Notes under the pieces: model-generated
Seen by the model: only the letters and a program-made list of their open reading frames with translations
What the model was told of the DNA's origin: nothing
Databases searched by the model: none
Assembly: GCA_041664625.1 (NCBI GenBank)
Contig: JBAYKK010000005.1
Span: forward strand, 1 to 56,792
Reading direction: 5' to 3'
Source: Minisyncoccota bacterium
Lineage (GTDB): Bacteria; Patescibacteriota; Minisyncoccia; Phycocordibacterales; WO2-35-19
DNA: 56,792 bases
In this document: positions 536 to 41,105 of the stretch, piece by piece
Numbering within the stretch: position 1 is the first letter of the stretch
Layout: every line of letters starts with the position of its first letter
Program-made: the position numbers and the translations under genes

Positions 536-937
536 TTATTTCAAGTTTACCTTTCCCCCCGCGTCTTCAATAGATTTCTTCAAAGCTTCTGCTTCTTCTT
601 TCTTCATGTTTTCAACCAAAACTACTGGAGCAGCATCGACTTTGTCTTTGGCATCTTTGAGACCCAAAGCCAAAACTTCTTTCACCACTTTGATGATAGC
701 GATTTTTTGAGCACCAGCATCTACCAATTCAACAGTGAAGGTTGATTTTTCTTCCTTTGCCTCGCCGGAGCTTCCAGCGGAGGCGGGAGCAGCAACGGCT
801 GTTGCACTTACACCAAACTTACCTTCAAAAACTTTTACTAATTCGTTCAAATCCAAAACTGACATTTTTTCAATTTCTTCTACGATTTTGGCAAATTTTG
901 CCGGTACTACTGTTTCTTCTTTTTTTACTTCATCCAT
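536..937 (-). CDS. rplL: 50S ribosomal protein L7/L12
   Basis: MSVLDLNELVK...FGVSA...FTVELVDAG..KIAIIKVVKE..ALGLKDAKDKVD; carries a short palindromic in-frame insert in the hinge. Confidence 0.98.
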   Translation of the reverse strand: MDEVKKEETVVPAKFAKIVEEIEKMSVLDLNELVKVFEGKFGVSATAVAAPASAGSSGEAKEEKSTFTVELVDAGAQKIAIIKVVKEVLALGLKDAKDKVDAAPVVLVENMKKEEAEALKKSIEDAGGKVNLK

Positions 938-970: not shown

Positions 971-1011
971 CCCCTCTCCTTCGCAAGGAGAGGGGCTAGG
1001 GGTGAGGTCGT
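971..1011. repeat. CCCCTCTCC-type palindromic repeat (second copy inside tsaE, 53829-53869)
   Basis: CCCCTCTCCTTCGCAAGGAGAGGGG hairpin plus GGGGTGAGGTC tail; 39/41 identical to the tsaE copy. Confidence 0.9.
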
Positions 1012-1606: not shown

Positions 1607-1641
1607 TATTTGAAGAATACTCTTTTTATGAAATTTGTCAA

Positions 1642-1709
1642 CCCAGTAGTAGATTTTGGCATTGCACTGAAAGTGCATAGTAAAACTAATGCCAAAATTC
1701 ACTACTGGG
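1642..1709 (+). repeat. GTAG-type REP-like palindrome, copy 1 of 6
   Basis: GTAGTAGATTTTGGCATT...AATGCCAAAATTCACTAC. Confidence 0.9.
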
Positions 1710-1714
1710 TCAAC

Positions 1715-3010
1715 TTATCTAAACAAATCTACAAAAAAATTAAAAAAACGACTTGCAACACCAGTTTTTTTAGGCACTTCATAGATCACATTTTCCTGTG
1801 GCATATCCGAGCTTGGATCGGAGACGGCAGTTGTTTCTTTCTGTGGCTTGTCAAAGCTTGCGACAGAGGCAACTACTTTATTTTCAATTTTACTTTGTAT
1901 TATCAAAGCTTCATTTTTTATGTTTTGTATATTTTTAGAAATTTCCGTTGGGTTTATTGTTTCGACAGGAGCAACAGCAAAAACCATTTCACCTGTAGCG
2001 TTTTTGAGGCAAGTGCCCAAGCTGTTGTCAAAACCTTTCATTTTCAAAAGACTTTTATCGAGTTTGAAAGAAGATTTTGCTAAAACGATCGTGTTGGGTT
2101 GGAAGACAAAACCTTTGCCTTGATTTTCAATTTTCCAATTAAACAAGTTTATTTCGGTATTGCCTTTATTTAAAATTTCCAAATACTCCCCCATATCAGA
2201 AACAGTTATATCTGAAGAGGATACTTTCACCTTGAGCCGACTGACCGAAAATATGTCCCCTGCTCTGGCGCTCAAAACCACCACTAAATCGCCAGCGTAT
2301 TTGTAAGTATGGCTGACCAGTGATCCGACACCAACATTGCCGTCACCAAAAGACCAGTTTAATTCTGGACTAACTCCGGTAGTATTTTTTTTGATGGTAG
2401 CTTGAAACCAGATTGGGCTACCTGGTGAGGTTGTCCGATCGACACCAGCCAAAATTTCTAATTGAGCACTCAAAGAGGAAACTTTTTCAGTAGTGCCACT
2501 ACCAGAGCCCGAAGAAGAGTTGGTCGAAACCCCCAACACTTCCCCAGTGTTGTTGATGTCAGTATTCCCAGATGCTTCAGAAGAAACTATTATTTGCTGA
2601 CTTGTATCAAGCTCTATACCTGTATCTCTACCTCTGATATTTACTGTGATAATGAAAGTCCCCTCTTTAGAATCTTTGTAATAAAAAGTTTTATTAGCTG
2701 TATTTTTGCTCATATAAGTAGTAGCTGGGTTGCCAGTACTACCCAAAAATTCGCCCGTAGGCGAAGTAGAAATAAATTGGATGTCTAAAGTTTCTGGAGT
2801 TTGGATCGGATTGCCACCAGCATCTTGAGATTGGACAGTTATGGGGCCAGAGAGAGTATCGGGTTTGATTGATTGCGGATCGGTAGTAAATATTATTTTT
2901 TCTACCCCAGAGGCATAAGCTGAAGCGGCGTACATTATCATCAAACTGATTGCTACAATAACCAAAAATCCTAAAGTGAATCTGAAAAAAGTCTTATCAA
3001 AATATCGCAT
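1715..3010 (-). CDS. Membrane-anchored/secreted protein with PKD domain and lamin-tail-like domain
   Basis: N-terminal TM; PKD signature WSFGDG...VSHTYKYAG; YLEILNKGNTEINLFNWKI lamin-tail-like motif. Confidence 0.75.
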   Translation of the reverse strand: MRYFDKTFFRFTLGFLVIVAISLMIMYAASAYASGVEKIIFTTDPQSIKPDTLSGPITVQSQDAGGNPIQTPETLDIQFISTSPTGEFLGSTGNPATTYMSKNTANKTFYYKDSKEGTFIITVNIRGRDTGIELDTSQQIIVSSEASGNTDINNTGEVLGVSTNSSSGSGSGTTEKVSSLSAQLEILAGVDRTTSPGSPIWFQATIKKNTTGVSPELNWSFGDGNVGVGSLVSHTYKYAGDLVVVLSARAGDIFSVSRLKVKVSSSDITVSDMGEYLEILNKGNTEINLFNWKIENQGKGFVFQPNTIVLAKSSFKLDKSLLKMKGFDNSLGTCLKNATGEMVFAVAPVETINPTEISKNIQNIKNEALIIQSKIENKVVASVASFDKPQKETTAVSDPSSDMPQENVIYEVPKKTGVASRFFNFFVDLFR

Positions 3011-6791: not shown

Positions 6792-6810
6792 TCCAAGGAC
6801 AGTCCTTGGA
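6792..6810. repeat. Palindrome at the 3' end of the HUH transposase
   Basis: TCCAAGGAC-A-GTCCTTGGA. Confidence 0.85.
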
Positions 6811-6812
6811 CT

Positions 6813-7481
6813 TTATAGCGTATATTTTTCAATGCCATTCTTAAATGCTAACCAAAAACCTATAAAATCATCAAAATTTTTTGTATTCTCAAAATATTCT
6901 GGGAAAGCTTCTTTATTCAAAACACTTGCTTCTTGCCTATCTTCTAAATAATCTAAATAACTTGAATGTTTATAAGAATTTAAAAATATTTTTGATTGAG
7001 CAAAGTCTTGAATACCTTTTTCTTTCCAGTTTTTGTCTGTTAGTTTTATTGGGTTTAGGTGTACATAAGAGAAGAGATATTTTAAATATTCATCTCTACC
7101 CGCATGTTGTGCTTTAAATGGGCCTTGGAATAAGGACCCACTTCGCTTGTATTTTTTATTAAAATACATAGCGTAAGCGGTTTGAAGTTTTTTCATAAAA
7201 GAGCTGACTCCCTCATCATTTTTGGCTCTAATAAGTAGGTGGAAATGATTCGGCATTAAACAATATGCCCCAATATTAACTACCGTTTCTCCCCTATCAT
7301 AAGAAAAACGATCTTTTTTGGAAACCATTTTTAAAACAATTCTTTCCTCTGAATTAAACAAATATAAAGATTCAACAAATCTTGTATAATCTTTTGGATC
7401 AATAAAAATATCTCTTTTGTCAGTACCGCGATTGTATACGTGGTAATACTCATCTGGAGCAAATTTGAATTCTCTATACAT
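6813..7481 (-). mobile_element. REP-associated (RAYT/IS200-like Y1) HUH transposase
   Basis: YYHVYNRG, YCLMPNHFHLL (HUH), YAMYFNKKYKRSGSLFQG, YVHLNP; ATG at 7481 preferred. Confidence 0.9.
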
Positions 7482-7500
7482 AAAATAATAATAGCAAACT

Positions 7501-7519
7501 TCCAAGGACTGTCCTTAGA
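7501..7519. repeat. Palindrome at the 5' end of the HUH transposase
   Basis: TCCAAGGAC-T-GTCCTTAGA; 18/19 match to the reverse complement of 6792-6810. Confidence 0.85.
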
Positions 7520-9597: not shown

Positions 9598-9842
9598 AAA
9601 TTTTATTTCGTCCGAAACCTCACTTTTATTTTAAAATTTTCGTGAAATCCCAAACAACTAATAATTAATAATACTAAACTAATAACAATTTAAACTAACT
9701 CTGTAATCTCTTTAAAATCGACAAGAAATTACAGATCTAGTTAACAAAGGAATTTTACCGCCTAAAACACAAGCTTGCAAAAGCAAACATGTGGATAAGA
9801 CGGTTAACAACAAGTATTACATATTATAAGAGTAAAAGCAAT

Positions 9843-9909
9843 CCCGTAGTAGATTTTGGCATTGTGGCAAAGCCACAGCACGAAGTGCAATGCCAAAATT
9901 CACTATGGG
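9843..9909 (+). repeat. GTAG-type REP-like palindrome, copy 2
   Basis: Same arms; inner TGTGGCAAAGCCACAGCACGAAGTGC. Confidence 0.9.
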
Positions 9910-9915
9910 ATAACT

Positions 9916-10638
9916 CTATATAATAGAATACTTGCTCCATCTCCTTTCGCCGGTTTTCTTTATTTTACCCTCATTTATAAGTACCATAAGCTCTCTTTGA
10001 ATAGTCTTCTCGCTACAGCCGTTTATATGCGGTACTATGTCCTTTATACTAACATTCGTATGTCCTTTAATAAATTCTAGGACAGTGCTTTTCCTCAAAT
10101 CTTTTCTTTTGTGTCCATTAGTGCCACCTGAAGTATTTGGACTCAAAATTCCAGATCGATTCGTTTTAATATTTTCTACTAAACTTTTAGGTTCGTTTGC
10201 AGTATTCAAACTATGAGAAGTCCCCTCTGCACTCATAAATTGAGATTCTGTAAACAGATTTTTTACAGATACGTTTTTATTATTTTCATAATTATCTGAA
10301 AATTTATTGAGCTCTGAAATAAAAGATTGGAATTCTTCTTTCAAGATATTGCCATTCATTTTGGAAATCAAACCAGAGACCGAAGCTATGTCTAACATAG
10401 ACATAAGTTCTAAAGAATTTTTTTCAATATCTAAAATTAATTTTTTGGTGTCTAGAATATTTACGTCTTTTAAATTAACAGACACGGAAACTAAGTTTAG
10501 AGACAAGTTTTTTATCTTGGTCTTCAACTCTTGGTCTTGTTCTATAAGATTAGATATCATGAACACTGCTGCCGCTAATCTATAAGATTTGTTATATATA
10601 AATACAAAATCGCTGTTTTTTGTGACTATTTCATTCAT
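9916..10638 (-). CDS. Helical-bundle N-terminus plus C-terminal winged-HTH (DeoR-like) protein
   Basis: C-term RKSTVLEFIK...VSIKDI....CSEKTIQRELMVLINEGKIKKTGERRWSKY. Confidence 0.8.
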   Translation of the reverse strand: MNEIVTKNSDFVFIYNKSYRLAAAVFMISNLIEQDQELKTKIKNLSLNLVSVSVNLKDVNILDTKKLILDIEKNSLELMSMLDIASVSGLISKMNGNILKEEFQSFISELNKFSDNYENNKNVSVKNLFTESQFMSAEGTSHSLNTANEPKSLVENIKTNRSGILSPNTSGGTNGHKRKDLRKSTVLEFIKGHTNVSIKDIVPHINGCSEKTIQRELMVLINEGKIKKTGERRWSKYSII

Positions 10639-10800
10639 GTTTTAATTGATTTTTATCGTATAAGACATTGGTCAATAAGACTTTATTTGTCTTATACATT
10701 CTTAATGTCTCTTATATTGTATACTATCAGACACTAAAAGTCAATAGACTAACTTATGACCTTATAATTAAGGATATTCTGTCCTTTATCGTAAGTCAAC

Positions 10801-10867
10801 CCCGTAGTGAATTTTGGCATTGCACTTCGTGCTGTGGCTTTGCCACAATGCCAAAATCTACTACGGG
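10801..10867 (-). repeat. GTAG-type REP-like palindrome, copy 3 (inverted relative to copy 2)
   Basis: Reverse complement of 9843-9909 with one difference. Confidence 0.9.
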
Positions 10868-10935
10868 GTCAATCCCATTTGCATGTCAACAATTTGTTAA
10901 TCCCTTCGTTACTTCGTATATGTTATTATTTGGGT

Positions 10936-13529: not shown

Positions 13530-14621
13530 ATGGCAAAAAAAGAAAAAAAAGAAGCGCGCAAAACTGATTCCGGAATAGAAGATGCTCTGAGAGAAATAAA
13601 AACTAAATTTGGTGACGACTCCATAATGATGCTTGGAGAAAAACCACACGTCGACATAAACAGCATTTCTACCGGATCTATCGGGCTTGACTCGGCTCTT
13701 GGTATTGGCGGTGTCCCCCGTGGCCGTATCATTGAAATATTTGGACCAGAATCTTCAGGCAAAACCACTCTTTCTTTGCACATAATCGCTGAGGCTCAAA
13801 AATTGGGAGGTATCTGCGCTTTCATAGATGCCGAACACGCGATGGATCCAGAATACTCTCAAAGATTGGGAGTCAAAGTAGATCAACTACTCATCTCTCA
13901 GCCAGACAACGGTGAACAAGCCCTCGATATCGTTGATTCTTTGGTCCGCTCTGGCAAATTGGACGTAGTCGTTATCGATTCAGTAGCGGCTCTCACCCCA
14001 AAAGACGAGATCGAAGGTGATATGGGCGCTTACCACGTCGGCAAGCAAGCCCGTCTCATGTCTCAAGCACTCCGCAAACTCACTGCCATCGTCGCCAAAT
14101 CCAAAACCGTAGTGATATTCATCAACCAAATCCGTATGCAAATCGGCGTGATGTTTGGTAACCCAGAAACCACTCCAGGCGGTAAAGCTTTGAAATTTTA
14201 TACATCGGTCCGTTTGGATATCCGCCGAATCGCTCAAATCAAAAAAGGTGAAGAAATCATGGGTGGTAGAGTCCGTGTGAAAGTGGTCAAAAACAAAGTC
14301 GCTGCCCCTTTCAAACAAACCGAATTCGACTTGATGTACAACGAAGGTATTTCCAAAGAAGGTGAGATGATCGCTTTGGGTGAAAAAATGGGAATTATTA
14401 AAAAATCTGGCACGAGCTACGGTTACTTACCTATCGGCGCTACTGCCAAAGATGAAGTGAAGCTTGGTCGAGGTTACGACGCCACTCGCCAATTCCTCAA
14501 AGCCAAAGAAAATAAAAAAATAGCTGAAGAAATCCTCAAACTCATCCGCAAACGACTCCATGAAGACACTAGCCCCGTCGCAACAGTCAAAGAAGAAGCT
14601 GAAGAATCACCAGAGGAATAA
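13530..14621 (+). CDS. recA: Recombinase RecA
   Basis: [44 protein letters not shown]. Confidence 0.99.
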
Positions 14622-15242: not shown

Positions 15243-15338
15243 AAAATAGTTCTCGAACGTGCCTATGCGTAGGCAAACGTGCCGAGCATAGCAAATTTCA
15301 GCAGAAATTATGCGACGGCTAAGCGAGAGAACTATTTT
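15243..15338. repeat. 96-bp structured repeat with terminal inverted repeats, copy 1 (copy 2 at 54790-54885)
   Basis: 94/96 identity between copies; ends AAAATAGTTCT...AGAACTATTTT. Confidence 0.92.
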
Positions 15339-16624: not shown

Positions 16625-17584
16625 TCAAAAAGCAATCCCAAAAACTCTTTTGGCATTATTTAAAATTGCACTATTTAAATCTTCAAAACTTTCCCCCCTG
16701 ATTTCAGCCAACTTTTTAATCACCTCAATCACATACACCGGTTCGTTCCTCTTGCCTCGGAAAGGCACTGGTGCCACCCAAGGCGCATCAGTTTCAGACA
16801 TAATCAAATCTTGAGGAATGTATTTGATAACCTCATCATAATCATGTGTACCCTCCTTCGCAGAGCTTCGGCGAGGTAAAAATGTAACAACTCCCGTGAA
16901 AGACATAGCAAAATCCAAATCCAAAAATCTTTTGGCCACTGTCACATCCCCAGCAAAAAAATGTACATCCCCTCTCAATTTTTCTCCATAAGTTTTATGA
17001 TAACTTTCCAAAATATCCAAAGCATCATCATACGCATCCCCGCCCGCAACGCTCTCGCTCGCGAGGCGGGCAGGTCTCACGTGGAGCATCAGAGGCTTGT
17101 CGTGTTTTAAAGCAAATTCAATTTGCTCTATAAATAATTCTTTTTGCTTGTTTTTTTCTTCTTGGACTAAGCTACCTTCGCCAAGGCTTCGGTGCTCAAA
17201 GTAATCCAACCCGCATTCCCCTATAGCCACCACTTTTGGACTTTTGACTAATTCTTCAAATTCAACCTCATCCCATCCCACTTCGTGGGATCGCCCTTCC
17301 CCTAGATGCAGGGGAAGGGCTTCATTCTTACCCTCTCCTGCTTCTAGGAGAGGGTCGTTCCGCACAGCGGAACGGGGTGAGGTTATATGATCTGGGTGCA
17401 CACCGATGGTCGCCCAAATATTTTGATTAGCTTCGGCTATCTCTACTGCTTTTTTAGAATTTTCCAAATCTGTACCGATAGTGATCGCTCCCACTCCAGA
17501 CTCTTTCATCCGCGTCAAAATAGCCTCTCTATCAGATTCAAAATCTTTTGAGTCCAAATGACAATGTATATCTATGTATTTCAT
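16625..17584 (-). CDS. tatD: TatD family hydrolase with several in-frame palindromic insertions
   Basis: DIHCHL, TIGVHP, IGECGLDY, LMLHVR, VHFF, ETDAPW, RNEP. Confidence 0.93.
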   Translation of the reverse strand: MKYIDIHCHLDSKDFESDREAILTRMKESGVGAITIGTDLENSKKAVEIAEANQNIWATIGVHPDHITSPRSAVRNDPLLEAGEGKNEALPLHLGEGRSHEVGWDEVEFEELVKSPKVVAIGECGLDYFEHRSLGEGSLVQEEKNKQKELFIEQIEFALKHDKPLMLHVRPARLASESVAGGDAYDDALDILESYHKTYGEKLRGDVHFFAGDVTVAKRFLDLDFAMSFTGVVTFLPRRSSAKEGTHDYDEVIKYIPQDLIMSETDAPWVAPVPFRGKRNEPVYVIEVIKKLAEIRGESFEDLNSAILNNAKRVFGIAF

Positions 17585-21563: not shown

Positions 21564-21604
21564 GAGGGTGACCCTTGAGGATTTTGCCCCAAAGGGTCAC
21601 CCTC
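21564..21604. repeat. 13-bp inverted repeat at the RT stop
   Basis: GAGGGTGACCCTT...AAGGGTCACCCTC. Confidence 0.75.
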
Positions 21605-22598
21605 AAATTTTTTTAATTTGCTCCCACAACTTCCACCCACTCCCCCATCCTAACATCCCCAAATACGAAGCTACTGTATTTTCTCTTTGTTTTCCTTCTT
21701 TTGAATTTATATTCCTAAACATTTTCTTTTTAGTTGCAGTTCGCAATACTCGGTGATTTGGAAAATGTACCCAACCCAAAAAATCAACTCCCGAATATAG
21801 GGTTTTAACAAAAAGTTTGTCTGAATGAAGAGTTAAATTCAATTCTTCTTTTAGGAAATCTGCAATTTTTGGTACTAGTTCCAAAATATAATCTTGATCT
21901 GTATCTAAAATAACAAAATCATCTGCGTATCTAATATAATGTTTGATTTTTAACTTGTGTTTAATAAATTGATCAAATTTGTTTAAGTACACATTTATAA
22001 AAAGTTGGGATGTTAAATTACCCAGTGGCAAACCAACCTCAATTTTATTTTTTGTATTGAAACTTGAAACTACTTTTTCCAAAAGCCAAATTATATTTTC
22101 ATCTTTTATATATTCTTTCAAGATTTTAATCAGTATTTCGTGACCAATACTGGCAAAACACTTCTTAACATCACCTTTTAAAACCCAACAAGTTTTTGTG
22201 TTGTTTTTTGATACTTTCTTACCAAAATCTCTAAAACGATTTAAGGCTTTGTGTGTACCTTTGAAATTTCGGCAAGAAAAAGAATCAAAAACGAATAATC
22301 GATCAAAATATGAATACAAAATTCTGTAGACAGCGTGATGCAAAAGTCTGTCTCGAACTGTAGCTTTGTGAATATTGCGAGGTTTTGGATCGTTTATGGA
22401 AAAAGCAAAATATCCACCGTGTTTGTATGATTTGTTCGTTAAATCAAAGTGAAGCTCTGATATATTATGTGAAAGATTGAGCGCAAACTCAGCCACATCT
22501 TTTTTGTTTTTCTTACCTGGTAAAAATTCCTGCCAAGCGTCATAAAGATTTTTAACTGATATAATGTTTTGGTAATCAATTTTAATTAAATTTTTCAT
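21603..22598 (-). CDS. DGR-class reverse transcriptase
   Basis: KPRNIH..TVRDRLLHHAV, GTHKAL, LKGDVKKCFASI, GLPLGNLTSQ, YIRYADDF, GVDFLG, SYLG; ATG 22598 (MKNLIKID) preferred to the MGGGG extension. Confidence 0.96.
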   Translation of the reverse strand: MKNLIKIDYQNIISVKNLYDAWQEFLPGKKNKKDVAEFALNLSHNISELHFDLTNKSYKHGGYFAFSINDPKPRNIHKATVRDRLLHHAVYRILYSYFDRLFVFDSFSCRNFKGTHKALNRFRDFGKKVSKNNTKTCWVLKGDVKKCFASIGHEILIKILKEYIKDENIIWLLEKVVSSFNTKNKIEVGLPLGNLTSQLFINVYLNKFDQFIKHKLKIKHYIRYADDFVILDTDQDYILELVPKIADFLKEELNLTLHSDKLFVKTLYSGVDFLGWVHFPNHRVLRTATKKKMFRNINSKEGKQRENTVASYLGMLGWGSGWKLWEQIKKI

Positions 22599-22982
22599 AT
22601 GCAAACCAATTCTACCCCCCCCCCCCAAGAATTACCAAAATTAATCCCCAAAAAAAAAAAATACTAAACCCTTTGGCAAAAACTGCATAGAGATTTCCCA
22701 AGAGTTGAACGGCTTGGTATAGGACAAAAGATTGAAAATATTTTTCTTTTTGTATTAGAGTTAACTTTTTATTCCGCATATTTACCTCTAGAACCTAAAA
22801 TACTGATGCTCGGTAAAGCTATATCTAAACTAGATATTTTAAAATTTTTTATACAACTAGCTTGGGAGAATAAATTGATTTCCACAGATCAACACATTGA
22901 ACTGTCTCAAAACTTGGAGGAAATCGGGCGACAACTTGGTGGTTGGAAAAAAGGACTTGAAGCAAAACTCCCGTCAAAATAA
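22599..22982 (+). pseudogene. avd: Avd-like four-helix-bundle accessory protein, antisense to TR/RT, with in-frame TAA at 22665-22667
   Basis: Own translation: MQTNSTPPPQELPKLIPKKKKY*TLWQKLHRDFPRVERLGIGQKIENIFLFVLELTFYSAYLPLEPKILMLGKAISKLDILKFFIQLAWENKLISTDQHIELSQNLEEIGRQLGGWKKGLEAKLPSK; IGRQLGGW tail typical of Avd/bAvd. Confidence 0.85.
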
Positions 22983-23004
22983 TGACGGGAGAAATGATTA
23001 GTTT

Positions 23005-23120
23005 CGGAAGGACAATGCGATGACGATTGTCGCCATTCCACACGTTGGCGTTCGAGAAGCGATTGACGTTCACGTTCGGCCTACCGTCAGTGTTCAGGTT
23101 CACGTTAGCAACGAAGAACT
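23005..23120 (-). repeat. DGR template repeat (TR)
   Basis: AAC-rich, reads FFVANVNLNTDGRPNVNVNRFSNANVWNGDNRHRIVLP; ungapped match to 23436-23551. Confidence 0.96.
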
Positions 23121-23339
23121 TGTGCTATAAATCTTCCGTTGCACCACCCATCAAACCATGACAAGTTGAATATTATTCGGGACATAAAAGTCCACTAATT
23201 TATAGCACCAACTAATTATTTTTTGTTTATAAAAATATATCCACTCTTTTGTAAGACGTATCCGACAAAATTCTCAAATATACTTTTATACAACCATGGC
23301 ACCGAAGCCATAACCGCGGCGCTTGCATATTGCAAGTTT

Positions 23340-23348
23340 AGTATAACA
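23340..23348 (-). promoter_or_regulatory. Extended -10 element, candidate promoter for the TR-RT transcript
   Basis: TG-T-TATACT on the minus strand about 220 nt upstream of TR. Confidence 0.45.
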
Positions 23349-23350
23349 AA

Positions 23351-23394
23351 AATCCCCCAAACCCGCCCACAATTGGGAAAGGGTCTGAGGGATT
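23351..23394 (-). terminator. Hairpin/terminator downstream of the DGR target gene
   Basis: Minus strand AATCCCTCAGACCC...GGGTTTGGGGGATT followed by a T-run; pairing needs G-U wobbles. Confidence 0.65.
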
Positions 23395-23414
23395 AAGAGT
23401 CAAAGGATCAAACC

Positions 23415-24044
23415 TTAGGACTCAAGGGTCAGTTGCGGAAGGACAATGCGACGACGAAAGCCGCCACGCCACACGCCGGCGCTCGAGACGCGACCGACGC
23501 CCACGCCCGGCCCACCGTCAGTGCTCAGGCCCACGAAAGCAACGAAGAACTCACCCGCCACCTTGAATAAAAAGAAGGTGGAGTAACCACCAGTGCGAAG
23601 CCACTGCTTGTGGTCGCACACAAAAGCGATGATCTGCTCCTGGGTGAGGCAGAGATCATCCAAACTCCGTCCGAGACTACTGAAGATGGTTTTGAAGTCT
23701 CCGTCTTGGAACATCTCGTAGACTTGGACGGGAGTTTCTGGTTTTGCTTCTTCGGGGACATCGAGACCCCAGTTTTTGAAGTCGGGGTCAAGGTACCCAG
23801 TGAACACTTCCTTGGCGGAAGTGATGGTTTTGGTGCCGGTGGTGGCGGAGATGGTGACACTGGCGGAGATGGAGCGGAGGATTGATGCCACCGCTTTCTC
23901 CACCTTCACCCAACACGGCTCCTTGCGGAGGAACTTTTTCAATTCGTTTCCCCACAGTTCGGCGTCGTTGCCGAGCAAGTTTTTCATCAGTTGGTTAAGC
24001 AGTCCAACGAACTGCTGGAGCGCTTCACTGAGCATATTATTCAT
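23415..24044 (-). CDS. DGR target protein (209 aa), VR in the C-terminal 40 residues
   Basis: VR encodes FFVAFVGLSTDGGPGVGVGRVSSAGVWRGGFRRRIVLP; SD GAAAGGA; visibly GC-richer than flanks. Confidence 0.95.
   Translation of the reverse strand: MNNMLSEALQQFVGLLNQLMKNLLGNDAELWGNELKKFLRKEPCWVKVEKAVASILRSISASVTISATTGTKTITSAKEVFTGYLDPDFKNWGLDVPEEAKPETPVQVYEMFQDGDFKTIFSSLGRSLDDLCLTQEQIIAFVCDHKQWLRTGGYSTFFLFKVAGEFFVAFVGLSTDGGPGVGVGRVSSAGVWRGGFRRRIVLPQLTLES
23436..23551 (-). repeat. DGR variable repeat (VR)
   Basis: 22 mismatches to TR in 116 bp, 21 at TR adenines. Confidence 0.96.
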
Positions 24045-26174: not shown

Positions 26175-26783
26175 TTAATTAGCTTTGAGGGATTCATTTA
26201 TGAGAGCGATCATCCTTGACCTCTTGGGAGAGATCGCTTCTAGTGATTCGATAGTTATCTCTGACGATGATATCGGCACAGAAAGTTCTGGGTCATGTCT
26301 CATATAACCCAAAACATGCAAAATGCGAAGCAGGGTTAAACATTCTGCCAAAACTATATCTTGTGATTTGGCTTTTTCTAAAAAATTAAAAAAATTGCAA
26401 ACAATATTAAAAACTCCCGACTTCGCCTCAAGCTTCGTCGTGGCAAGGGAAATATAAGACTCTTCAGAAACCAACTTTTTAACCAGATTTAAAATATTAC
26501 CAACCATCTTCAACTTTTCTGGAGAATTTTTGAATACTTCAAACAAATTTTTTTCAGACCTACTACTTACCACTTTCCAACCGGTTTTACCATGAATCAA
26601 AGAAAACTCCCCCAATGAAAAATCTTGGCAACCACCTCGCAATTTGGAATGTAAATTCCTAGCCCCTTGCACCTTGGCATTTATAAGGCCAAAATTTTCA
26701 GTAAATACATTTACTAATTTATTACTATCGCCCTCAGCGCGACTAGAAACTACGATGCCTTTAGTGTGGTGTTTGTGATACAT
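26175..26783 (-). CDS. recO: DNA repair protein RecO
   Basis: TKGIVVSSRAEGDSNKLVNVFTENFGLINAKVQGARNLHSKLRG OB-fold. Confidence 0.85.
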   Translation of the reverse strand: MYHKHHTKGIVVSSRAEGDSNKLVNVFTENFGLINAKVQGARNLHSKLRGGCQDFSLGEFSLIHGKTGWKVVSSRSEKNLFEVFKNSPEKLKMVGNILNLVKKLVSEESYISLATTKLEAKSGVFNIVCNFFNFLEKAKSQDIVLAECLTLLRILHVLGYMRHDPELSVPISSSEITIESLEAISPKRSRMIALINESLKAN

Positions 26784-26905: not shown

Positions 26906-29900
26906 CTACTGGATACATATTTTAAAAGTCATATTTTCTATCTCTATTTGTTCACCGTCATTATTTTCAAAAACAAAATTGCTTACATTGGTTGGTTTTT
27001 TGATTTCAGAAGCCATTGAATTCAAAAATTCTTTGCCTGTACCATCGGTTTCAACCAAAAGTTCCACCGTGTCACTCGGTACCAAATTTTTATTTTTCCT
27101 GAGTTCTTGGATAGCTCTGATGAATCCTCTGGCATTCCCCTCTTTTTGCAATTCTGGAGTGATCTCAGTATCGAGTTCTAATTCTTGTTCTAAGTTTTCA
27201 TCAAAAATTATTTCTTTGATATTTATCTCGTCTTTGATCAAATCTAGATATTCTTCTTTATCTTTCAATTTTAAATCTTTAATTTTCAATTTACTAAGCG
27301 GTTGTCTCACTTTTATATTGGCAGTCATCCTTTTTTCTAAAGCCAAGGACACGACACTCCTGACCTCGGCCATATTTTGTAAAATCTCATTATCAATTTT
27401 TATTTCATTCAAATCAGACCAATTTTCCAAATGTACGCTCTGTTGACTAGACTTTATTTTTAGCGATTGAAAAATATCCTCCGCCAAAAACGGCATTATC
27501 GGAGCTATTATTTTAGAAAGTTCAAGTAAAACGAAATGCATAGTTTCAGAAACCATTTTTCTTTCTTTCTCGGTTTCAGATTTAAATCGATCTCTTGATC
27601 TACGCAAATACCAAGTTGATAAATCGTCAATAAAACTTCGCACTGGTCGGCCCGATTTTAAAGTATTGTATTGCTCCAAACCTTCAGTTACTTCAGTATG
27701 TAATTCTTTTAATCTAATTAAAATCCATTTATCTAAAATATTATCTGATTTTTTGAACTCCACAAAATCTGTCTTATAAGAAGAATAAAAAGAAACCACA
27801 TTGAGCAAAATATTTATCATTCTTTGATATATTTCTTTAACATTTTCATCTTTGAAATTTAAATCCTCAGCCTGCATCACTACTGAAGTCATCATATAAA
27901 ACCGCAAAGCATCAGCTCCATACTTATCAATAATAATCAAAGGGTCGGTGTAGTTGTTTTTGGACTTGCTCATTTTTTCACCATCTGCCGCTAAGATAGT
28001 GCCAGTGGTTACCACATTTTTAAAAGATTCACTCTTAAAAAGAGCTGTCGATATAACATGCATATAATAAAACCAAGTCCGAGTCTGAGCTATATATTCA
28101 GCTATAAAATCTCCAGGAAAACGAGCTTCAAAATTTTCTTTGTTTTCAAAAGGATAGTGCCATTCGGAAAATGGCATAGAGCCTGATTCAACCCAACAAT
28201 CTATTACTTCTGGTATTCTCTTCAAATTGAACCCGTCCTCATCCGCTAATTCAATTTCATCAATATAAGGCCGATGCAAATCTAACTCATAATTTTCATT
28301 GTGAGGCAAAGGTACAAAATCAAGCTCACCAAATTCAGCAAAGCCAGATTTGTATAAATTTTTTTCTTTGATCTCAATCGATTTTTTTAAGTCCGCCCCC
28401 TGAGCCACCATATGCATAGCAGCGATCGGACCATCATGACTCACCAAAAGAATATTTTTACCTGCATATTTATTTTCTAAATCATACAAGAAACTTCCAA
28501 CTCTTTTGTTGAGATCGAGCAAGTTTTCACCACCATCGGGAGATTTTTCAAATCTTTCTTTGGTGTTGGCAAACAATTTCCAATACTCATCCCATTTTTT
28601 GCCTTCAAAATTTGGGCCTTTTTTGAATTCTCCCAGCATTTCATCTATCACAACAGCTTCTGCTTTTAATCCTAAAGTTTCTCTGACAATTTCGGTCGTC
28701 TCCAAACATCTGGTGAAAGGTGAAGTGATTATCAAATCAATTTTTTTATTTTTTATATCTAAACTAGACATACTGACTTGTTTTTTGCCTTCCGTCGTCA
28801 AATGATAAATGTTTTTTGGATCAGTATTTATCAAATCTCCAATATTTTGTTCAGCTTCGCCGTGTCGCATAGTGAAATATTTGTTACCAGATTTTTTGGT
28901 GTATTTTTTGAGTTCGGCAACTGAACCAATGACTTTTATTTCCTTAGTTTTTTCATTTCTCCAAATAGGTAAAGGCGAGGCCCAAAATCGATTTCGACTA
29001 ATAGTCCAATCTGGTGCGCTTTCCATAATGCTTTGAAATCGGCCATGTTTTAAATGCTCTGGCACCCAATTTATATTTTCATTTTTTGAAAGCATCTCAT
29101 TTTTTATTTTTTGCACATCAATAAACCAACTTGAAAGAGCGTTATAAATTAGCGGTGTACCACAACGATAACAATGAGGGTAAGAGTGAGTATTTGGCGC
29201 TTTAGCAAACAAAAGCCCACGGTTTTGTAAGTCTTCTTTTATTAAACTCTCGGCTTTTTTTATATAAACCCCGCGTACAAATTCTGGAGCATCATTATTG
29301 AAATTACCATTAGGTAGAAGTAGGGGCACCATCGGCAAATCATTTTTCAAACCGAGTTGATAATCGTCTTCACCATAAATAACTGCGGTATGAACCACTC
29401 CTGTACCATCTTCAGTCGTCACGAAGTCAGCCGGCACAACAAGCCATGCTTTTTTGTTGGTAGCTCTAACTGCCGGCAAATCATACAGCGGCTCGTACTC
29501 CAAACCGACTAGACTCTCCCCTTTCATTTCTTTAATTATTTTATATTCATCGTCCCCAAAAACTGCCTCCAACCTACTCTTCGCCAATATAAAATGCACC
29601 AAATCACCCACTCCCATATCCTTTTTTTCAATCAAAACATAATCAATTTCTGGACCAACCGCCAAAGCTACATTGGCCGGCAAAGTCCATGGGGTAGTAG
29701 TCCACGCCAATATAGAAATATTTTTTGGCAAATTATTCTTATCAGGATTTTTTATTTTAAATTCAAGAATTACCGCCTCTTCAGTCACGTCTTTATAAGA
29801 ATTATCCATAGCAATCTCGGCTCGAGCGAGTGGAGTTTCGCAACGTGGACAATAAAGTAAAACTTTTCGTCCTTCGTAGAGCATTCCCTTTTTGTGAATT

Positions 29901-30412
29901 TGAGATAAAGCCCACCAAACACTTTCAGTATAGTTGGTGTCCATAGTCTTATAGGAATTATCAAAATCTACCCAACGACCAAGTCGATCAATATATTTTT
30001 TCCAATCATTAACATAAGTTAAAACTTGGGACCGACATTCTTGGTTAAATTTCCCTATACCTAAAGTCTCGATATCTTTTTTGTGTTTTAGACCAAGTTT
30101 TTTTTCTACAATATTTTCTACGGGTAGACCATGGCAATCCCAACCCCAAACTCGGCGGACGTGGTAGCCCTTCATGGTTTTATAACGAGGAAAAAGATCT
30201 TTGGCAGTGGAGCCCAACAAATGCCCATAATGAGGCAAGCCAGTAGCAAAAGGCGGCCCATCATAAAAAACAAACTCACCTTTTGGTGATGGTTTTTCAA
30301 GTGATTTTTCAAATATTTTATTGTCTTGCCAAAATTTGAGAATTTCTTCTTCTCTTTCAGCGATTTTTGCTTTGCCCGTTATTTCCTTAGTATTTTTATT
30401 TTCTTCTGCCAT
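26906..30412 (-). CDS. ileS: Isoleucine--tRNA ligase with inserted histidine-phosphatase domain
   Basis: DGPPFATGLPHYGH, GWDCHGLP, WTTTPWTLP, DWTISRNRFW, KMSKS; insert with RHGE...SPFTRCLET...VSHDG. Confidence 0.96.
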   Translation of the reverse strand: MAEENKNTKEITGKAKIAEREEEILKFWQDNKIFEKSLEKPSPKGEFVFYDGPPFATGLPHYGHLLGSTAKDLFPRYKTMKGYHVRRVWGWDCHGLPVENIVEKKLGLKHKKDIETLGIGKFNQECRSQVLTYVNDWKKYIDRLGRWVDFDNSYKTMDTNYTESVWWALSQIHKKGMLYEGRKVLLYCPRCETPLARAEIAMDNSYKDVTEEAVILEFKIKNPDKNNLPKNISILAWTTTPWTLPANVALAVGPEIDYVLIEKKDMGVGDLVHFILAKSRLEAVFGDDEYKIIKEMKGESLVGLEYEPLYDLPAVRATNKKAWLVVPADFVTTEDGTGVVHTAVIYGEDDYQLGLKNDLPMVPLLLPNGNFNNDAPEFVRGVYIKKAESLIKEDLQNRGLLFAKAPNTHSYPHCYRCGTPLIYNALSSWFIDVQKIKNEMLSKNENINWVPEHLKHGRFQSIMESAPDWTISRNRFWASPLPIWRNEKTKEIKVIGSVAELKKYTKKSGNKYFTMRHGEAEQNIGDLINTDPKNIYHLTTEGKKQVSMSSLDIKNKKIDLIITSPFTRCLETTEIVRETLGLKAEAVVIDEMLGEFKKGPNFEGKKWDEYWKLFANTKERFEKSPDGGENLLDLNKRVGSFLYDLENKYAGKNILLVSHDGPIAAMHMVAQGADLKKSIEIKEKNLYKSGFAEFGELDFVPLPHNENYELDLHRPYIDEIELADEDGFNLKRIPEVIDCWVESGSMPFSEWHYPFENKENFEARFPGDFIAEYIAQTRTWFYYMHVISTALFKSESFKNVVTTGTILAADGEKMSKSKNNYTDPLIIIDKYGADALRFYMMTSVVMQAEDLNFKDENVKEIYQRMINILLNVVSFYSSYKTDFVEFKKSDNILDKWILIRLKELHTEVTEGLEQYNTLKSGRPVRSFIDDLSTWYLRRSRDRFKSETEKERKMVSETMHFVLLELSKIIAPIMPFLAEDIFQSLKIKSSQQSVHLENWSDLNEIKIDNEILQNMAEVRSVVSLALEKRMTANIKVRQPLSKLKIKDLKLKDKEEYLDLIKDEINIKEIIFDENLEQELELDTEITPELQKEGNARGFIRAIQELRKNKNLVPSDTVELLVETDGTGKEFLNSMASEIKKPTNVSNFVFENNDGEQIEIENMTFKICIQ

Positions 30413-30416
30413 AAAC

Positions 30417-31259
30417 TTATCTTACCAGTTTTCCGCCATTTTTCAATTTTGAAAGAGCGTTTTCAAACTCTAAAGGTAAAGGTGATTCTACCGTCAACTG
30501 AGTGTGGTCAGGTAATTCTAGTTTTATAGAAAAAGCATGCAAAGCCAATCGTTCAAACCCTAAGTTTGCCTCTTCAGTTCCCCCCTTAATGTAAGGGGGG
30601 TTAGGGGGGTTATTTTTTCCGTAAAGTTTATCGCAAAGCACCGGATGTGAGATTGATTTCAGATGTACCCTGATCTGGTGGGTGCGACCGGTTTTGGGTT
30701 TAACTTCTAAATAGGCAAACTCTTCTACCTCTTTTCCTTCTTTACCCCTCTTAATATAAGAGGGGTCGACGCGTAGCGCGGGGGCGTTATTTGTTTGAGC
30801 AAGCACTTTATATTCTGTCACCGCTTCTCGCAATTCCCCTTTGGCACCATGTTCGGCCGACCATTTCCTGAAATCACTGGCACTTCTACCGATTGGTTTA
30901 TTTATAACCCCCTCCATTTTATCTTCCGAAAAATTACCCCAAACCACAGCATTATAAATTTTTTGGACTTCTCTATTTTGAAATTGTTCTTTCAAAAAAG
31001 CATGCGACTCTTTGGTTTTGGCCACCAAGATCACTCCACTAGTGTCTTTATCGAGGCGATGCACTATTCCTGGTCGTTTTATAATTTCATTATTTTGTAA
31101 AATCTGCTCTTCCCCTACTTCTTTCAAGTCAGGGTAATTTGAGTTTATCCAATCCACCAAAGTTTCTTCTGTTCTTCGGCCGTCACTATGCACCAAAAGA
31201 CCCGATGGTTTATCCAAGGCTAAGATGTATTGGTCTTCATATAAGGTATTTATTTCCAT
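30417..31259 (-). CDS. RluA/RluD family pseudouridine synthase
   Basis: GIVHRLDKDTSG, KTGRTHQIRVHL, LHA. Confidence 0.95.
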   Translation of the reverse strand: MEINTLYEDQYILALDKPSGLLVHSDGRRTEETLVDWINSNYPDLKEVGEEQILQNNEIIKRPGIVHRLDKDTSGVILVAKTKESHAFLKEQFQNREVQKIYNAVVWGNFSEDKMEGVINKPIGRSASDFRKWSAEHGAKGELREAVTEYKVLAQTNNAPALRVDPSYIKRGKEGKEVEEFAYLEVKPKTGRTHQIRVHLKSISHPVLCDKLYGKNNPPNPPYIKGGTEEANLGFERLALHAFSIKLELPDHTQLTVESPLPLEFENALSKLKNGGKLVR

Positions 31260-33784: not shown

Positions 33785-33799
33785 AGCTAAATTATATCA

Positions 33800-33868: not shown

Positions 33869-33882
33869 TATCATACAACTTT

Positions 33883-39081: not shown

Positions 39082-39085
39082 ATTT

Positions 39086-40742: not shown

Positions 40743-41105
40743 ATGATCTCAATAGATGATTTTAAAAAAGTAGAAATAAGAGCGGGCAAAGTGCTTTCAG
40801 CTGAACCGGTAGAAGGATCAGAGAAATTACTTAAACTTTCGGTAGATTTTGGATCCGCCTCCGCCGAAAGCTCTGGCGAGGCAAAGGAAGAAAAAAGGGA
40901 TTTGAGGCAAGTAGTATCAGGCATAGCCAAACACATCTCCCCCGAAGAATTAGTCGGTACTACTTGCACTTTTGTCACCAATTTAGAGCCTCGAGAAATC
41001 ATGGGTCTCAAAAGTGAAGCCATGATCATGGCTTTATCAAACGAAGAATCTTTTTCTTTACTCAAAGTCTCACCAAATATCCCCCCTGGTAGTATTGTCA
41101 AATAG
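40743..41105 (+). CDS. Standalone tRNA-binding OB-fold protein (Trbp111/CsaA/MetG C-terminal-like)
   Basis: ISIDDFKKVEIRAG...KLLKL.VDFG...RQVVSGI...VTNLEPR...SEAM. Confidence 0.92.
   Translation: MISIDDFKKVEIRAGKVLSAEPVEGSEKLLKLSVDFGSASAESSGEAKEEKRDLRQVVSGIAKHISPEELVGTTCTFVTNLEPREIMGLKSEAMIMALSNEESFSLLKVSPNIPPGSIVK

What the first reader, a model, noticed from the sequence alone, without database searches (positions are those of the whole stretch)
746..786. A short palindromic element inserted in-frame in several unrelated housekeeping proteins
Seen: rplL 746-786 (reverse complement) and the tRNA-binding gene 40855-40895 share 38/41 nt and encode ASAGSSGEAKEE and ASAESSGEAKEE. Related CC(G)CCTTCGCC..AGCTTCGGCG sequences occur in tatD (16851-16876, LPRRSSAKEG; 17172-17197, HRSLGEGS) and recO (26416-26448, LATTKLEAKSG). 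They are GC-rich against an AT-rich background and are read in different frames and orientations. Established: Rickettsia palindromic elements show that selfish repeats can enter coding sequence and create new peptide segments. Inferred: this genome has its own mobile coding-palindrome family that remodels loops of essential proteins.
Basis: partly seen in the sequence, partly recalled or inferred. Interest (0 to 1): 0.72.

Follow-up and report, generated by a model that had tools for sequence, protein, structure and literature searches.

The report
In-frame palindromic repeats in CPR genes
A 30-40 base GC-rich palindrome is scattered, in frame and in both orientations, through loops, linkers and tails of unrelated housekeeping proteins of groundwater Patescibacteria, much as Rickettsia palindromic elements are, and some copies stay unchanged even at silent codon positions for reasons not yet known.

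Summary
rplL (746-786, -) and the Trbp111-like gene (40855-40895, +) share 38/41 nt in the same reading frame, where chance predicts none. Searching with a consensus finds two more copies above the shuffle maximum. They lie antisense in tatD (16850-16879) and recO (26416-26450). The tatD 17172-17197 candidate is not significant.

The unit is a discrete imperfect palindrome of about 30 nt, ACCCGCCTCCGCYGAAGCTTCGGCGAGGCAA. A long sense form adds AAGGAAGAAAAA.

Relatives carry it in the L12 hinge, L10, RecA, TatD, Trbp, S16 and NusA tails, an FtsB-like protein and, rarely, spacers. Orthologues show clean 27-45 nt presence/absence, scattered across the gene trees. In L12 it replaces hinge sequence and adds no length.

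The family is not private to this genome. It occurs across Paceibacteria-type CPR lineages and is about 90-fold over-represented in the source metagenomes.

Variants differ by compensated 1-nt indels that change the peptide but keep the DNA. Sense copies keep silent sites fixed (codon identity 0.75 versus 0.36), while other copies decay.

The local RAYT-like transposase has its own, different flanking hairpins.

Best reading: an RPE-like in-frame palindromic repeat family whose copying mechanism is unknown. I found no published description.

The parts
746..786 (-). Long sense copy in the L7/L12 hinge (host gene rplL 536-937, -). It reads PASAGSSGEAKEEK. Core 753-787; tail AAGGAAGAAAAA.
   Evidence: E=2.7e-12; score 54. 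Hinge length is unchanged relative to relatives.
40855..40895 (+). Long sense copy in the loop of a Trbp111/CsaA-like tRNA-binding protein (host gene 40743-41105, +). It reads SASAESSGEAKEEK.
   Evidence: 14-residue insertion relative to 1PYB. pLDDT below 50 for residues 41-49. Empty allele P0017. Depth spike with sharp edges at 40855 and 40888-93.
16850..16879 (+). 30-nt copy antisense to tatD (host 16625-17584, -). It reads LPRRSSAKEG. Partly decayed.
   Evidence: E=0.04; score 36 against null maximum 28. Clean 10-codon insertion present in 6 of 32 orthologues. The L161 orthologous copy matches the element's reverse complement at 27/28 positions.
26416..26450 (+). Copy of about 30 nt antisense to recO (host 26175-26783, -). 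It reads (S)LATTKLEAKSG. Decayed.
   Evidence: score 34 against null maximum 28. 10-residue insertion relative to the RecO of L162. nhmmer alone is not significant (E=1.9).
14427..14453 (-). Probable old, AT-decayed copy in recA (host 13530-14621, +). It reads LPIGATAKD. The orthologous site in L095 holds a well-kept copy reading LPAGASAKEGG.
   Evidence: It would not be detectable from the window alone (score 20).
17172..17197 (+). Membership is unproven in this genome.
   Evidence: Score 21, the shuffle median. The orthologous site in relatives carries RRSLGEGG, RRSFSEGG or PRSSSGAKSEVG inserts. The L161 copy scores 32.

Best explanation
The 41-nt match belongs to a dispersed family of short GC-rich imperfect palindromes found in Paceibacteria-type Patescibacteria (CPR). 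The discrete unit is about 30 nt, ACCCGCCTCCGCYGAAGCTTCGGCGAGGCAA. A long sense form carries a slightly larger centre and the tail AAGGAAGAAAAA.

Shown:
- Copies sit almost only inside protein-coding genes, in either orientation.
- They are always a multiple of three bases and free of stop codons.
- They add 9-15 residues to surface loops, linkers and tails of unrelated proteins. In L12 they replace hinge residues instead.
- The conserved entity is the DNA, not the peptide.
- Presence/absence at a given site is patchy among orthologues and differs even between close strains.
- Copies range from pristine to AT-decayed.

Inferred:
- The family spreads by copying a hairpin-forming unit into new sites. 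Candidate routes are single-strand copy/paste by an unidentified enzyme, or copy-choice/ectopic repair, perhaps helped by natural transformation between co-resident lineages.
- Selection then keeps only in-frame, stop-free copies in structurally tolerant places.
- In effect this is a much shorter CPR counterpart of the Rickettsia palindromic elements.
- The rplL and Trbp copies are two well-kept sense copies.
- The L12 hinge may be the birthplace or a preferred landing site. Its native sequence (CCN GCC NCC GCT GG...GAA GAR AAA) already resembles both ends of the unit.

Not explained: why the arms of sense copies in rplL and Trbp stay fixed at silent sites.
For: One DNA family in many genes:
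- Window copies are in rplL, Trbp, tatD and recO.
- Relatives carry it in L10, RecA, TatD sites 2 and 4 and Trbp variants b, c and d.
- They also carry it in S16 and NusA tails, an FtsB-like tail, Zn-ribbon proteins, a giant protein and an L12 N-terminal extension.
- Two copies are intergenic.

Discrete unit: independent inserts of 30, 30, 30 and 33 nt share the same ends, TTGCC...GGGT when read antisense.

Both orientations: the TatD site-4 copy in L161 matches the reverse complement at 27/28 positions.

DNA rather than peptide:
- Variant c equals variant b with three 1-nt deletions (38/39 aligned positions identical). The internal peptide changes from GSSGEAK to EASAGK.
- Variant b is open in all six frames.

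Gain and loss:
- TatD site 4: 5 carriers need 5 changes on the NJ tree (permuted mean 4.7).
- TatD site 2: 13 changes against 14.6 permuted.
- rplL: at least 19 switches among 80 sequences.
- L10: insert present in 7 of 80 orthologues.
- Trbp: empty forms at 79% identity, filled forms at 55%.
- Strain level: strains about 93-94% identical (X3/X4) carry 31 extra GC-rich letters at 26358-26369 of recO. A hairpin insert in tatD, which I treat as a separate one, shows a 36-nt indel.

Age spectrum: pristine copies alongside decayed ones.

Community abundance: depth 576 and 738 against about 6 and 8 at 40851-40904, with many different flanks.

Tolerated position: the Trbp insert lies in a loop between strands and has pLDDT below 50.
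Against: - I found no target-site duplication, terminal inverted repeats beyond the dyad itself, common target motif or candidate enzyme.
- The neighbouring RAYT-like gene has different cognate hairpins.
- Copy number is low: 4-5 in 57 kb. No strict long-form copy lies outside rplL in 673 kb around rplL.
- In rplL the element adds no length.
- All of the roughly 17 long-form copies share one frame and orientation relative to the host gene.
- Resident copies within one rplL clade keep silent sites fixed: 0.78 against 0.38, and 0.75 against 0.36 in the unbiased set. Trbp genes only 55% identical share 33 identical nt. A purely selfish resident copy should decay.
- The NJ trees rest on 98-248 columns and are weakly resolved, so the gain/loss counts are upper-leaning estimates.
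- Palindromes are also prone to precise deletion, so some of the patchiness may be loss.
- No insertion event was observed directly.
Confidence: 0.55

Rival explanations
1. The conserved sense copies are a functional cis-acting nucleic-acid signal kept by host selection. It could be an mRNA hairpin, or an SD / anti-SD-like duplex: the left arm contains CCUCC, and the right arm and tail contain GAGG and AAGGA. It would act in highly expressed translation and transcription genes (rplL, trbp, rpsP, nusA). Dispersal would be occasional duplication, and the antisense copies dead by-products.
For: - Silent sites in the arms are fixed while the loop codons change amino acid freely within one vertically related rplL clade.
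- Codon identity is 0.75 against 0.36, and GC3 is 0.77 against 0.42, only in variant-b genes.
- Trbp genes 55% identical share 33 identical nt.
- One-sided changes are mostly C to U opposite G, which preserves RNA pairing.
- All long-form copies are sense.
Against: - 46 of the 71 distinct rplL sequences in the unbiased set do without it, and close relatives differ.
- Trbp, TatD and L10 orthologues lack it freely.
- Predicted RNA stability of the hinge segment is no better than for ordinary hinges: -16.9 against -15.2 kcal/mol.
- There is no covariation beyond the shuffles.
- No Rfam family matches.
- C/U changes at third codon positions are synonymous anyway, so the wobble argument is confounded.
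Confidence: 0.2
2. There is no transposable element. The sequence was born in the L12 hinge, as the native hinge plus an internal inverted duplication made by template switching. Pieces of it are then copied into other genes by short-patch ectopic gene conversion or templated break repair. The copying is anchored on P-A...E-E-K codon micro-homologies, which are common in Ala/Pro/Glu/Lys-rich CPR linkers.
For: - The long form in other genes carries the EEK codons that are native to every L12 hinge, including hinges without the element.
- The left arm resembles the ordinary hinge sequence CCT GCC GCC GCT GG.
- Replacement without length change in rplL fits conversion.
- The same frame in all long-form copies fits codon-phased anchors.
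- recA, recO and ruvA are present in the window.
Against: - Antisense 30-nt copies with the same sharp ends in TatD, L10, RecA and RecO have no such anchors.
- Different variants sit 400 nt apart in one genome without homogenisation (L082: rplL variant b plus a c-like copy in L10).
- The window's rplL copy is no closer to its own Trbp copy (38/41) than to the rplL of another genome (L014, 40/41).
Confidence: 0.15
3. It is a REP/REPIN mobilised by the local HUH Y1 (RAYT-like) transposase at 6813-7505.
For: - A Y1_Tnp gene lies in the window (PF01797, 1.1e-10). Its best NCBIfam match is REP_Tyr_transpos.
- The element is a short imperfect hairpin with a bulged base and no target duplication, as REPs are.
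Against: - The gene is bracketed by its own matched hairpin, TCCAAGGACNGTCCTTGGA. In six relatives the bracketing hairpins co-vary with the gene and never resemble the element.
- The NCBIfam score of 44 is below the cut-off of 80.
- No element copy lies next to any homologue.
- There is no conserved GTAG/CTAC beside the element (own reading).
Confidence: 0.04
4. It is a DNA uptake or recombination signal, or another chromosomal protein-binding site such as parS, maintained by molecular drive or by selection across co-resident CPR lineages.
For: - The sequence is conserved across lineages and across a community.
- It occurs in both orientations in tolerant coding regions.
- Type IV pilus genes are in the window (PilM, T2SSE ATPase), and competence is reported for Patescibacteria (PMC12455944).
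- No canonical parS occurs in the window.
Against: - Density is about 10-fold or more below that of known uptake sequences (own knowledge of Haemophilus and Neisseria).
- No short core k-mer is strongly enriched.
- Discrete 30-nt insertions are not how uptake sequences arise.
- Many copies decay.
Confidence: 0.04
5. It is chance, or convergent low-complexity coding of Ala/Ser/Gly/Glu/Lys-rich linkers.
For: - The peptides are low-complexity.
- Codons for Ala, Gly and Ser are mutually reverse-complementary, which favours accidental dyads.
- Ordinary hinges fold about as well.
Against: - 38/41 nt against 0.00 expected.
- The same rare C-ending codons occur in AT-rich genomes.
- There is identity across frames and orientations.
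- Chance hits from other phyla use other codons.
Confidence: 0.01

Closest known systems
Rickettsia palindromic elements (RPE)
   Same: Both are palindromic repeats of an AT-rich, reduced genome. They are found in frame inside unrelated housekeeping genes and add peptide segments at positions compatible with the fold. They also occur between genes, and no transposase is known (PMC10969869; Ogata et al. 2000, from memory).
   Different: - RPEs are about 100-150 bp in some ten families confined to Rickettsia. This unit is about 30 nt (36-41 nt in the long form).
- It occurs across several CPR candidate phyla and classes.
- It is unrelated to RPEs in sequence.
- In L12 it replaces sequence rather than inserting.
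- Some of its copies show silent-site conservation.
REP / REPIN elements with RAYT (Y1 HUH) transposases
   Same: Both are imperfect GC-rich hairpins of 20-40 nt with no target duplication. A RAYT-like gene is present in the window.
   Different: - REPs are extragenic, usually high-copy, carry a conserved GTAG/CTAC and flank their RAYT.
- Here the copies are overwhelmingly intragenic and few.
- The RAYT-like gene is flanked by a different hairpin.
Organellar coding palindromes: GC clusters of yeast mitochondria, coding palindromes of Nematomorpha mitochondria (PMC6649704, abstract)
   Same: GC-rich or perfect inverted repeats embedded in protein-coding genes of AT-rich genomes and translated as part of the protein.
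   Different: These are organellar and far longer (up to 284 bp in Nematomorpha). They are a different lineage, and no shared sequence family spans many species.
DNA uptake sequences (USS/DUS) inside coding regions
   Same: A nucleotide motif conserved across related species, tolerated in weakly constrained protein segments in several frames and both orientations.
   Different: Uptake sequences have 9-12 nt cores at roughly one per kb and arise by point mutation plus drive. Here the unit is a discrete 30 nt, the density is low, and the insertions are clean.
[quoted passage not shown]
   Same: Coding sequence with dyad symmetry, a punctate distribution, and proposed spread by HGT and intragenomic shuffling.
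   Different: PARCELs are 25-residue units in long tandem arrays in surface or unknown-function ORFs of Mollicutes and others. They are not single 10-residue inserts in core housekeeping proteins.

Membership tests
Rickettsia palindromic elements (RPE) | Sequence belongs to one of the described RPE families of Rickettsia (about 100-150 bp) | tested here: not met
   The unit is 30-41 nt in Patescibacteria. RPE size and host are taken from PMC10969869. I made no direct sequence comparison with RPE consensus sequences.
Rickettsia palindromic elements (RPE) | Palindromic repeat inserted in frame in unrelated protein-coding genes, at structurally tolerant positions | tested here: met
   Trbp, TatD, RecO, L10 and RecA inserts. 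Position in a loop and low pLDDT.
REP/REPIN-RAYT | Copies of the repeat flank the RAYT gene in inverted orientation | tested here: not met
   The RAYT-like gene at 6813-7505 and its homologues in six loci are flanked by a different, co-varying hairpin.
REP/REPIN-RAYT | Extragenic location and high copy number | tested here: not met
   46 of 48 copies in 774 kb are intragenic. The window holds 4-5 copies in 57 kb.
REP/REPIN-RAYT | Conserved GTAG/CTAC tetranucleotide beside the hairpin | tested here: not met
   The flanks of eight copies have no common tetranucleotide (own reading). GTAGTAG belongs to another, intergenic repeat.
MITE | Terminal inverted repeats plus target-site duplication | tested here: not met
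   Filled/empty comparisons for TatD site 4, L10, RecA and Trbp show no duplication. The dyad is the whole element.
IS200/IS605-derived hairpin elements (PATE-like) | Insertion 3' of a fixed tetra- or pentanucleotide; mobilised by a TnpA (Y1) | tested here: inconclusive
   I saw no fixed flank in eight sites. Enzyme activity cannot be tested with these tools.
DNA uptake sequence | Short core strongly over-represented genome-wide (about one per kb) | tested here: not met
   k-mer enrichment shows no such core for this element: GGCGAGGC occurs 5 times against 0.5 expected, and 3 of the 5 are unrelated.
parS-type centromere site | A few palindromic sites per genome bound by ParB, clustered near the origin | not testable with these tools
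   No canonical parS occurs in the window. The position of the origin and the ParB specificity are unknown.
Rfam RNA families | Match to a curated covariance model | tested here: not met
   The window gives only tRNAs at gathering score. Nothing credible appears at 650-1100.

The most novel reading that the evidence does not exclude
The arms of the element are a phylum-wide nucleic-acid signal written into coding sequence. They would be an inverted repeat recognised by a conserved CPR protein, or an mRNA duplex, held by host-level selection at silent sites in rplL, trbp and other translation genes. The L12 hinge would be both its origin and its master copy. The peptide inserts in other proteins would then be side effects of a regulatory or chromosome-level system not yet described in any bacterium.
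Probability: 0.2. Interest if true: 0.85.

Novelty: new variant of a known kind. Interest (0 to 1): 0.62.

Why it matters
Patescibacteria have tiny genomes, and their proteins are known for odd insertions whose origin is rarely traced. This work traces part of that insertion load to one identifiable DNA family. A single 30-nt palindrome explains extra loops, linkers or tails in L12, L10, RecA, RecO, TatD, Trbp, S16 and NusA.

Three consequences follow:
- It offers a second, independent case after Rickettsia for studying how selfish or neutral DNA creates new protein segments.
- It warns annotators and structure predictors that these segments are DNA-driven.
- It provides a community-wide marker sequence.

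The silent-site conservation of some copies is a concrete, testable anomaly. If it reflects function, it points to an unknown cis-acting signal in uncultivated bacteria.

Tried and rejected
- **Rfam.** Gathering threshold over the whole window and E-value mode on 650-1100 gave nothing beyond tRNAs.
- **Hairpin thermodynamics.** Not better than shuffles nor better than ordinary hinges.
- **Covariation.** No excess over shuffles.
- **IMG/VR viral contigs.** No exact match to the right arm plus tail, so there is no sign of a phage vector.
- **Canonical parS.** Absent from the window.
- **Uptake-sequence idea.** No enriched core k-mer. Three of the five GGCGAGGC sites are unrelated.
- **RAYT link.** Different cognate hairpins.
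- **Genome-wide homogenisation.** Rejected, because different variants lie 400 nt apart in L082.
- **Same-genome pairing of rplL and Trbp variants.** Only two pairs could be made. The window is b/b. A 104,530-nt contig probably pairs an ordinary hinge with an empty Trbp site, inferred from equal contig length. The two genes lie 40 kb apart, and look-ups give at most 10 kb.
- **RNA evidence.** Only DNA runs hold this genome.
- **Genome-contig scan.** Capped at 80 loci and diluted by chance hits from other phyla, so copies per genome could not be counted.
- **Literature.** Four searches found no description of such elements in CPR.

Full report
**What is in the window**

The window is AT-rich (38% G+C). 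Source names given to the closest homologues place it in a groundwater Patescibacteria (CPR) bacterium near Candidatus Zambryskibacteria / Paceibacteria.

The reverse complement of 746-786 lies in the hinge of ribosomal protein L7/L12 (rplL, 536-937). It matches 40855-40895, in a 120-residue Trbp111/CsaA-like tRNA-binding protein (PF01588), at 38 of 41 bases. A degenerate 41-mer allowing three mismatches finds only these two sites, against 0.00 expected. Both copies are read in the same frame, and two of the three differences are synonymous.

**Is it a palindrome, and is it an insertion?**

The sequence is an imperfect dyad: GCCTC-C-GCYGGA / TCCGGC-GAGGC. As single strands, the two window copies fold no better than shuffles (z -1.4 and -0.9).

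In rplL it is not a length-adding insertion. Across 120 relatives the segment between KFGVS and FTVEL is almost always 20-24 residues. It comes in three variants:
- an ordinary AAAGPAAAGPAAEEK hinge (a);
- the window's PASAxGSGEAKEEK (b);
- PASAEASAGKEEK (c).

The window's hinge is also about as long as that of E. coli L7/L12 (own knowledge).

In Trbp it is an insertion. Many relatives of 107 residues read FGD-ENPRQV where the window reads FGSASAESSGEAKEEKRDLRQV. Against Aquifex Trbp111 (1PYB) the extra 14 residues fall in a loop. An AlphaFold model (mean pLDDT 86.8) puts them between two strands, with pLDDT below 50 for residues 41-49.

**The same DNA in many lineages and many genes**

I scanned one genome per species with a pattern that left third codon positions free. 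Among the returned loci that I assign to CPR, by record title or by low G+C and typical CPR proteins, were these hosts:
- L12 hinges of Paceibacterota, and of Zambryskibacteria, Nomurabacteria, Taylorbacteria and Beckwithbacteria;
- two more Trbp loops;
- C-terminal tails of S16 in two genomes;
- C-terminal tails of NusA in two genomes, one with three tandem copies;
- an FtsB-like protein;
- two Zn-ribbon proteins;
- a giant protein;
- an N-terminal extension of L12.

In these hits the free positions are almost fixed (GGC GAG GCA AAG). The upstream CCC GCC TCC GCC, which was not part of the pattern, is also kept. Chance hits from other phyla use other codons.

In two groundwater metagenomes that hold this genome, contig depth jumps from about 6-8 to 576 and 738 exactly over 40851-40904. 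The extra contigs have many different flanks, and the spike has sharp edges at 40855 and 40888-93.

**The nucleic acid is conserved, not the peptide**

I retrieved 80 rplL loci by protein similarity. In variant-b genes, codon identity at four-fold sites is 0.75 in the element columns against 0.36 in the rest of the gene. GC3 is 0.77 against 0.42. Variant-a genes show 0.36 against 0.35.

Variant c has the same DNA as variant b apart from three single-base deletions and one C-to-T change: 38 of 39 aligned positions are identical. The frame shifts internally, so GSSGEAK becomes EASAGK. Among other small differences, the changes between b and c include a G-to-A in the left arm and a C-to-T in the right arm, which keep the dyad.

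Variants b and c both occur in rplL and in Trbp. A 30-nt variant d (CCC GCC TCC GTC GAA GGC TTC GGC GGG ACA) occupies the same Trbp site in other genomes. The Trbp genes of the window and of L059 are only 55% identical as proteins, yet share 33 consecutive identical bases in the insert. Their flanks are saturated with silent changes.

**The tatD and recO claims**

TatD relatives range from 255 to 330 residues, with clean presence/absence at four sites.

At site 4, TF[LPRRSSAKEG]TH is present in 6 of 32 orthologues. In one relative (L161) the 30-nt insert TTGCCTCGCCGAAGCTTTGCGGAGGCGGGT matches the reverse complement of the rplL/Trbp element at 27 of 28 aligned positions. A third relative (L162) has the empty site.

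With the consensus CCCGCCTCCGCCGAAGCTTCGGCGAGGCAAAGGA, the window gives these Smith-Waterman scores:

| Locus | Score |
|---|---|
| rplL | 54 |
| Trbp | 52 |
| tatD site 4 | 36 |
| recO | 34 |
| Shuffle maximum (60 shuffles) | 28 |
| Shuffle median | 21 |

The tatD and recO copies are antisense to their host genes. RecO has a 10-residue insertion there relative to a 59%-identical orthologue.

The second tatD candidate (17172-17197) scores only 21. Orthologous sites in relatives hold RRSLGEGG, RRSFSEGG or PRSSSGAKSEVG inserts. The reverse complement of variant c reads ARRSFSGGG, which closely resembles the RRSFSEGG and ARRSLGGGG versions.

**A wider census**

In 774 kb of CPR loci I found 36 copies in L12 hinges and 12 elsewhere. 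The 12 include:
- L10 of L082, a 30-nt insert reading LSAEASAKAD that the window's L10 lacks; an insert of this size occurs in 7 of 80 orthologues;
- RecA of L095, reading LPAGASAKEGG;
- two spacers.

At that RecA site the window has LPIGATAKD, encoded by an AT-decayed version of the same DNA.

Independent inserts of 30, 30, 30 and 33 nt share the same ends, so the unit is discrete. I saw no target duplication and no common flanking motif.

**Gain and loss**

On neighbour-joining trees built without the insert columns, carriers are scattered about as much as in random permutations:
- TatD site 4: 5 changes for 5 carriers;
- TatD site 2: 13 changes against 14.6 permuted.

The rplL variant needs at least 19 switches among 80 sequences, against 27.3 permuted. 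These trees are short and weakly resolved, and palindromes are prone to precise deletion, so the direction of change is uncertain.

There is also strain-level polymorphism. Contigs about 93-94% identical to the window carry 31 extra GC-rich letters at 26358-26369 of recO. Another contig lacks 36 nt of a tatD hairpin, which I treat as a separate insert.

**What it is not**

- No Rfam family matches.
- The right arm plus tail has no exact match in IMG/VR.
- No short core is enriched as in uptake sequences.
- The window does contain a RAYT-like Y1 transposase at 6813-7505. It is bracketed by its own hairpin, TCCAAGGACNGTCCTTGGA. In six relatives the gene is bracketed by matched hairpins that co-vary with it and never resemble the element.
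- Different variants lie 400 nt apart in one genome (L082), so there is no general homogenisation.

**Best reading and what remains open**

The data fit an RPE-like family of in-frame palindromic repeats:
- a discrete hairpin-forming unit that is copied into new sites;
- a filter by selection for frame, absence of stop codons (variant b is open in all six frames) and structural tolerance;
- subsequent decay.

The copying mechanism is not identified.

One result does not fit a purely selfish element. Seven rplL genes that group together on the tree and are 80-87% identical all carry variant b. In them the arms are invariant at silent sites (0.78 against 0.38) while the two loop codons change amino acid freely. 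Yet predicted RNA stability is no better than for ordinary hinges, and there is no covariation beyond shuffles.

Three explanations remain possible:
- the arms are recognised by something and selected;
- these sites are re-converted repeatedly;
- the L12 hinge is itself the source. Its native sequence resembles both ends of the unit, and the long form found in other genes carries the EEK codons that are native to L12.

**Novelty**

Four full-text searches found no description of such elements in CPR. The nearest concepts are RPEs (PMC10969869), REP/RAYT systems, organellar coding palindromes (PMC6649704) and PARCELs (PMC2996958). I rate this a new variant of a known kind.

Noticed in passing
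window 21603-24044: A diversity-generating retroelement. The reverse transcriptase is at 21603-22628 (-), the template repeat at 22993-23120, and the variable repeat at 23424-23551 at the 3' end of ORF 23415-24044 (-). 24 of the 26 TR/VR mismatches fall at template adenines.
   Followed up: partly
window 971-1008, 53829-53866, 17330-17383 (also L089, L095, L102, L108, L162): A second hairpin family: ACCTCACCCC-N(3-20)-CCCTCTCCTT-loop-AAGGAGAGGG. It lies in the rplJ-rplL spacer, inside TsaE (where it reads TPNPSPCEGEGRKKEE) and inside tatD. There are 10 copies in 774 kb, mostly intergenic.
   Followed up: partly
window 17275-17374: Four tandem perfect GC-rich hairpins (stems of 7-11 bp) inside the tatD reading frame. 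The DNA fold has z = -9.1. They are shared by the closest TatD relatives and absent from most others.
   Followed up: partly
window 17040-17075: A 36-nt hairpin insert in tatD, CCCGCCTCGC...GCGGGCGGG, reading PARLASESVAGG. It is cleanly absent from a strain about 93% identical (contig of run X3). Another allele replaces it with 28 other letters.
   Followed up: partly
window 30580-30600 and 30744-30766: Two related hairpins, CCCC(C/T)CTTA-NNN-TAAG(G/A)GGGG, inside an RluD-like pseudouridine synthase. Both read P[PS]YIK[GR]G. The protein has about 40 residues more than the Pfam profile.
   Followed up: no
window 1624-1727, 9822-9930, 10791-10869, 33788-33875, 41103-41193, 54076-54168: An intergenic palindromic repeat of about 100 nt, ACCCnGTAGTAGATTTTGGCATTGCAC...GTGCAATGCCAAAATTCACTACnGGGT. 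AGTAGTAG is the most enriched 8-mer (15 against 0.9 expected). One 99%-complementary pair brackets ORF 9916-10638, which has no Pfam or NCBIfam match.
   Followed up: no
window 6792-7519: A RAYT-like Y1 transposase gene (6813-7505, -) bracketed by the hairpin TCCAAGGACNGTCCTTGGA. It is present in six relatives, mostly a few kb upstream of rplL, and each homologue has a matched, lineage-specific hairpin pair.
   Followed up: yes
window 15243-15338 and 54790-54885: A 96-nt repeat, 98% identical between its two copies, with inverted ends AAAATAGTTCTC...GAGAGAACTATTTT. It looks like a MITE.
   Followed up: no
window 26906-30412: Isoleucyl-tRNA synthetase with a histidine-phosphatase (His_Phos_1) domain inserted at residues 515-681. 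The same architecture occurs in relative L162.
   Followed up: no
window 36333-40521: A restriction-modification-like cluster: an HATPase_c_3 protein, a C5 cytosine methylase, a MutH/Sau3AI-like nuclease and an N6/N4 methylase.
   Followed up: no
window 26358-26369: Strains about 93-94% identical (runs X3, X4) carry 31 extra GC-rich letters here in recO, including CAGCGAAG and GGGG. The window lacks them. L162 RecO has 15 extra residues at the same place.
   Followed up: partly
window about 40.6-40.7 kb: Gene orientation flips from mostly - to + between tRNA 40589-40676 and the Trbp gene. GC skew changes sign nearby. This could be a replication landmark. No dnaA was seen among the roughly 50 window ORFs scanned with Pfam.
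   Followed up: no
L119 about 8.2-8.7 kb: A tandem array with a period of about 99 nt is read through as a spurious 176-residue ORF upstream of rplL in a relative.
   Followed up: no
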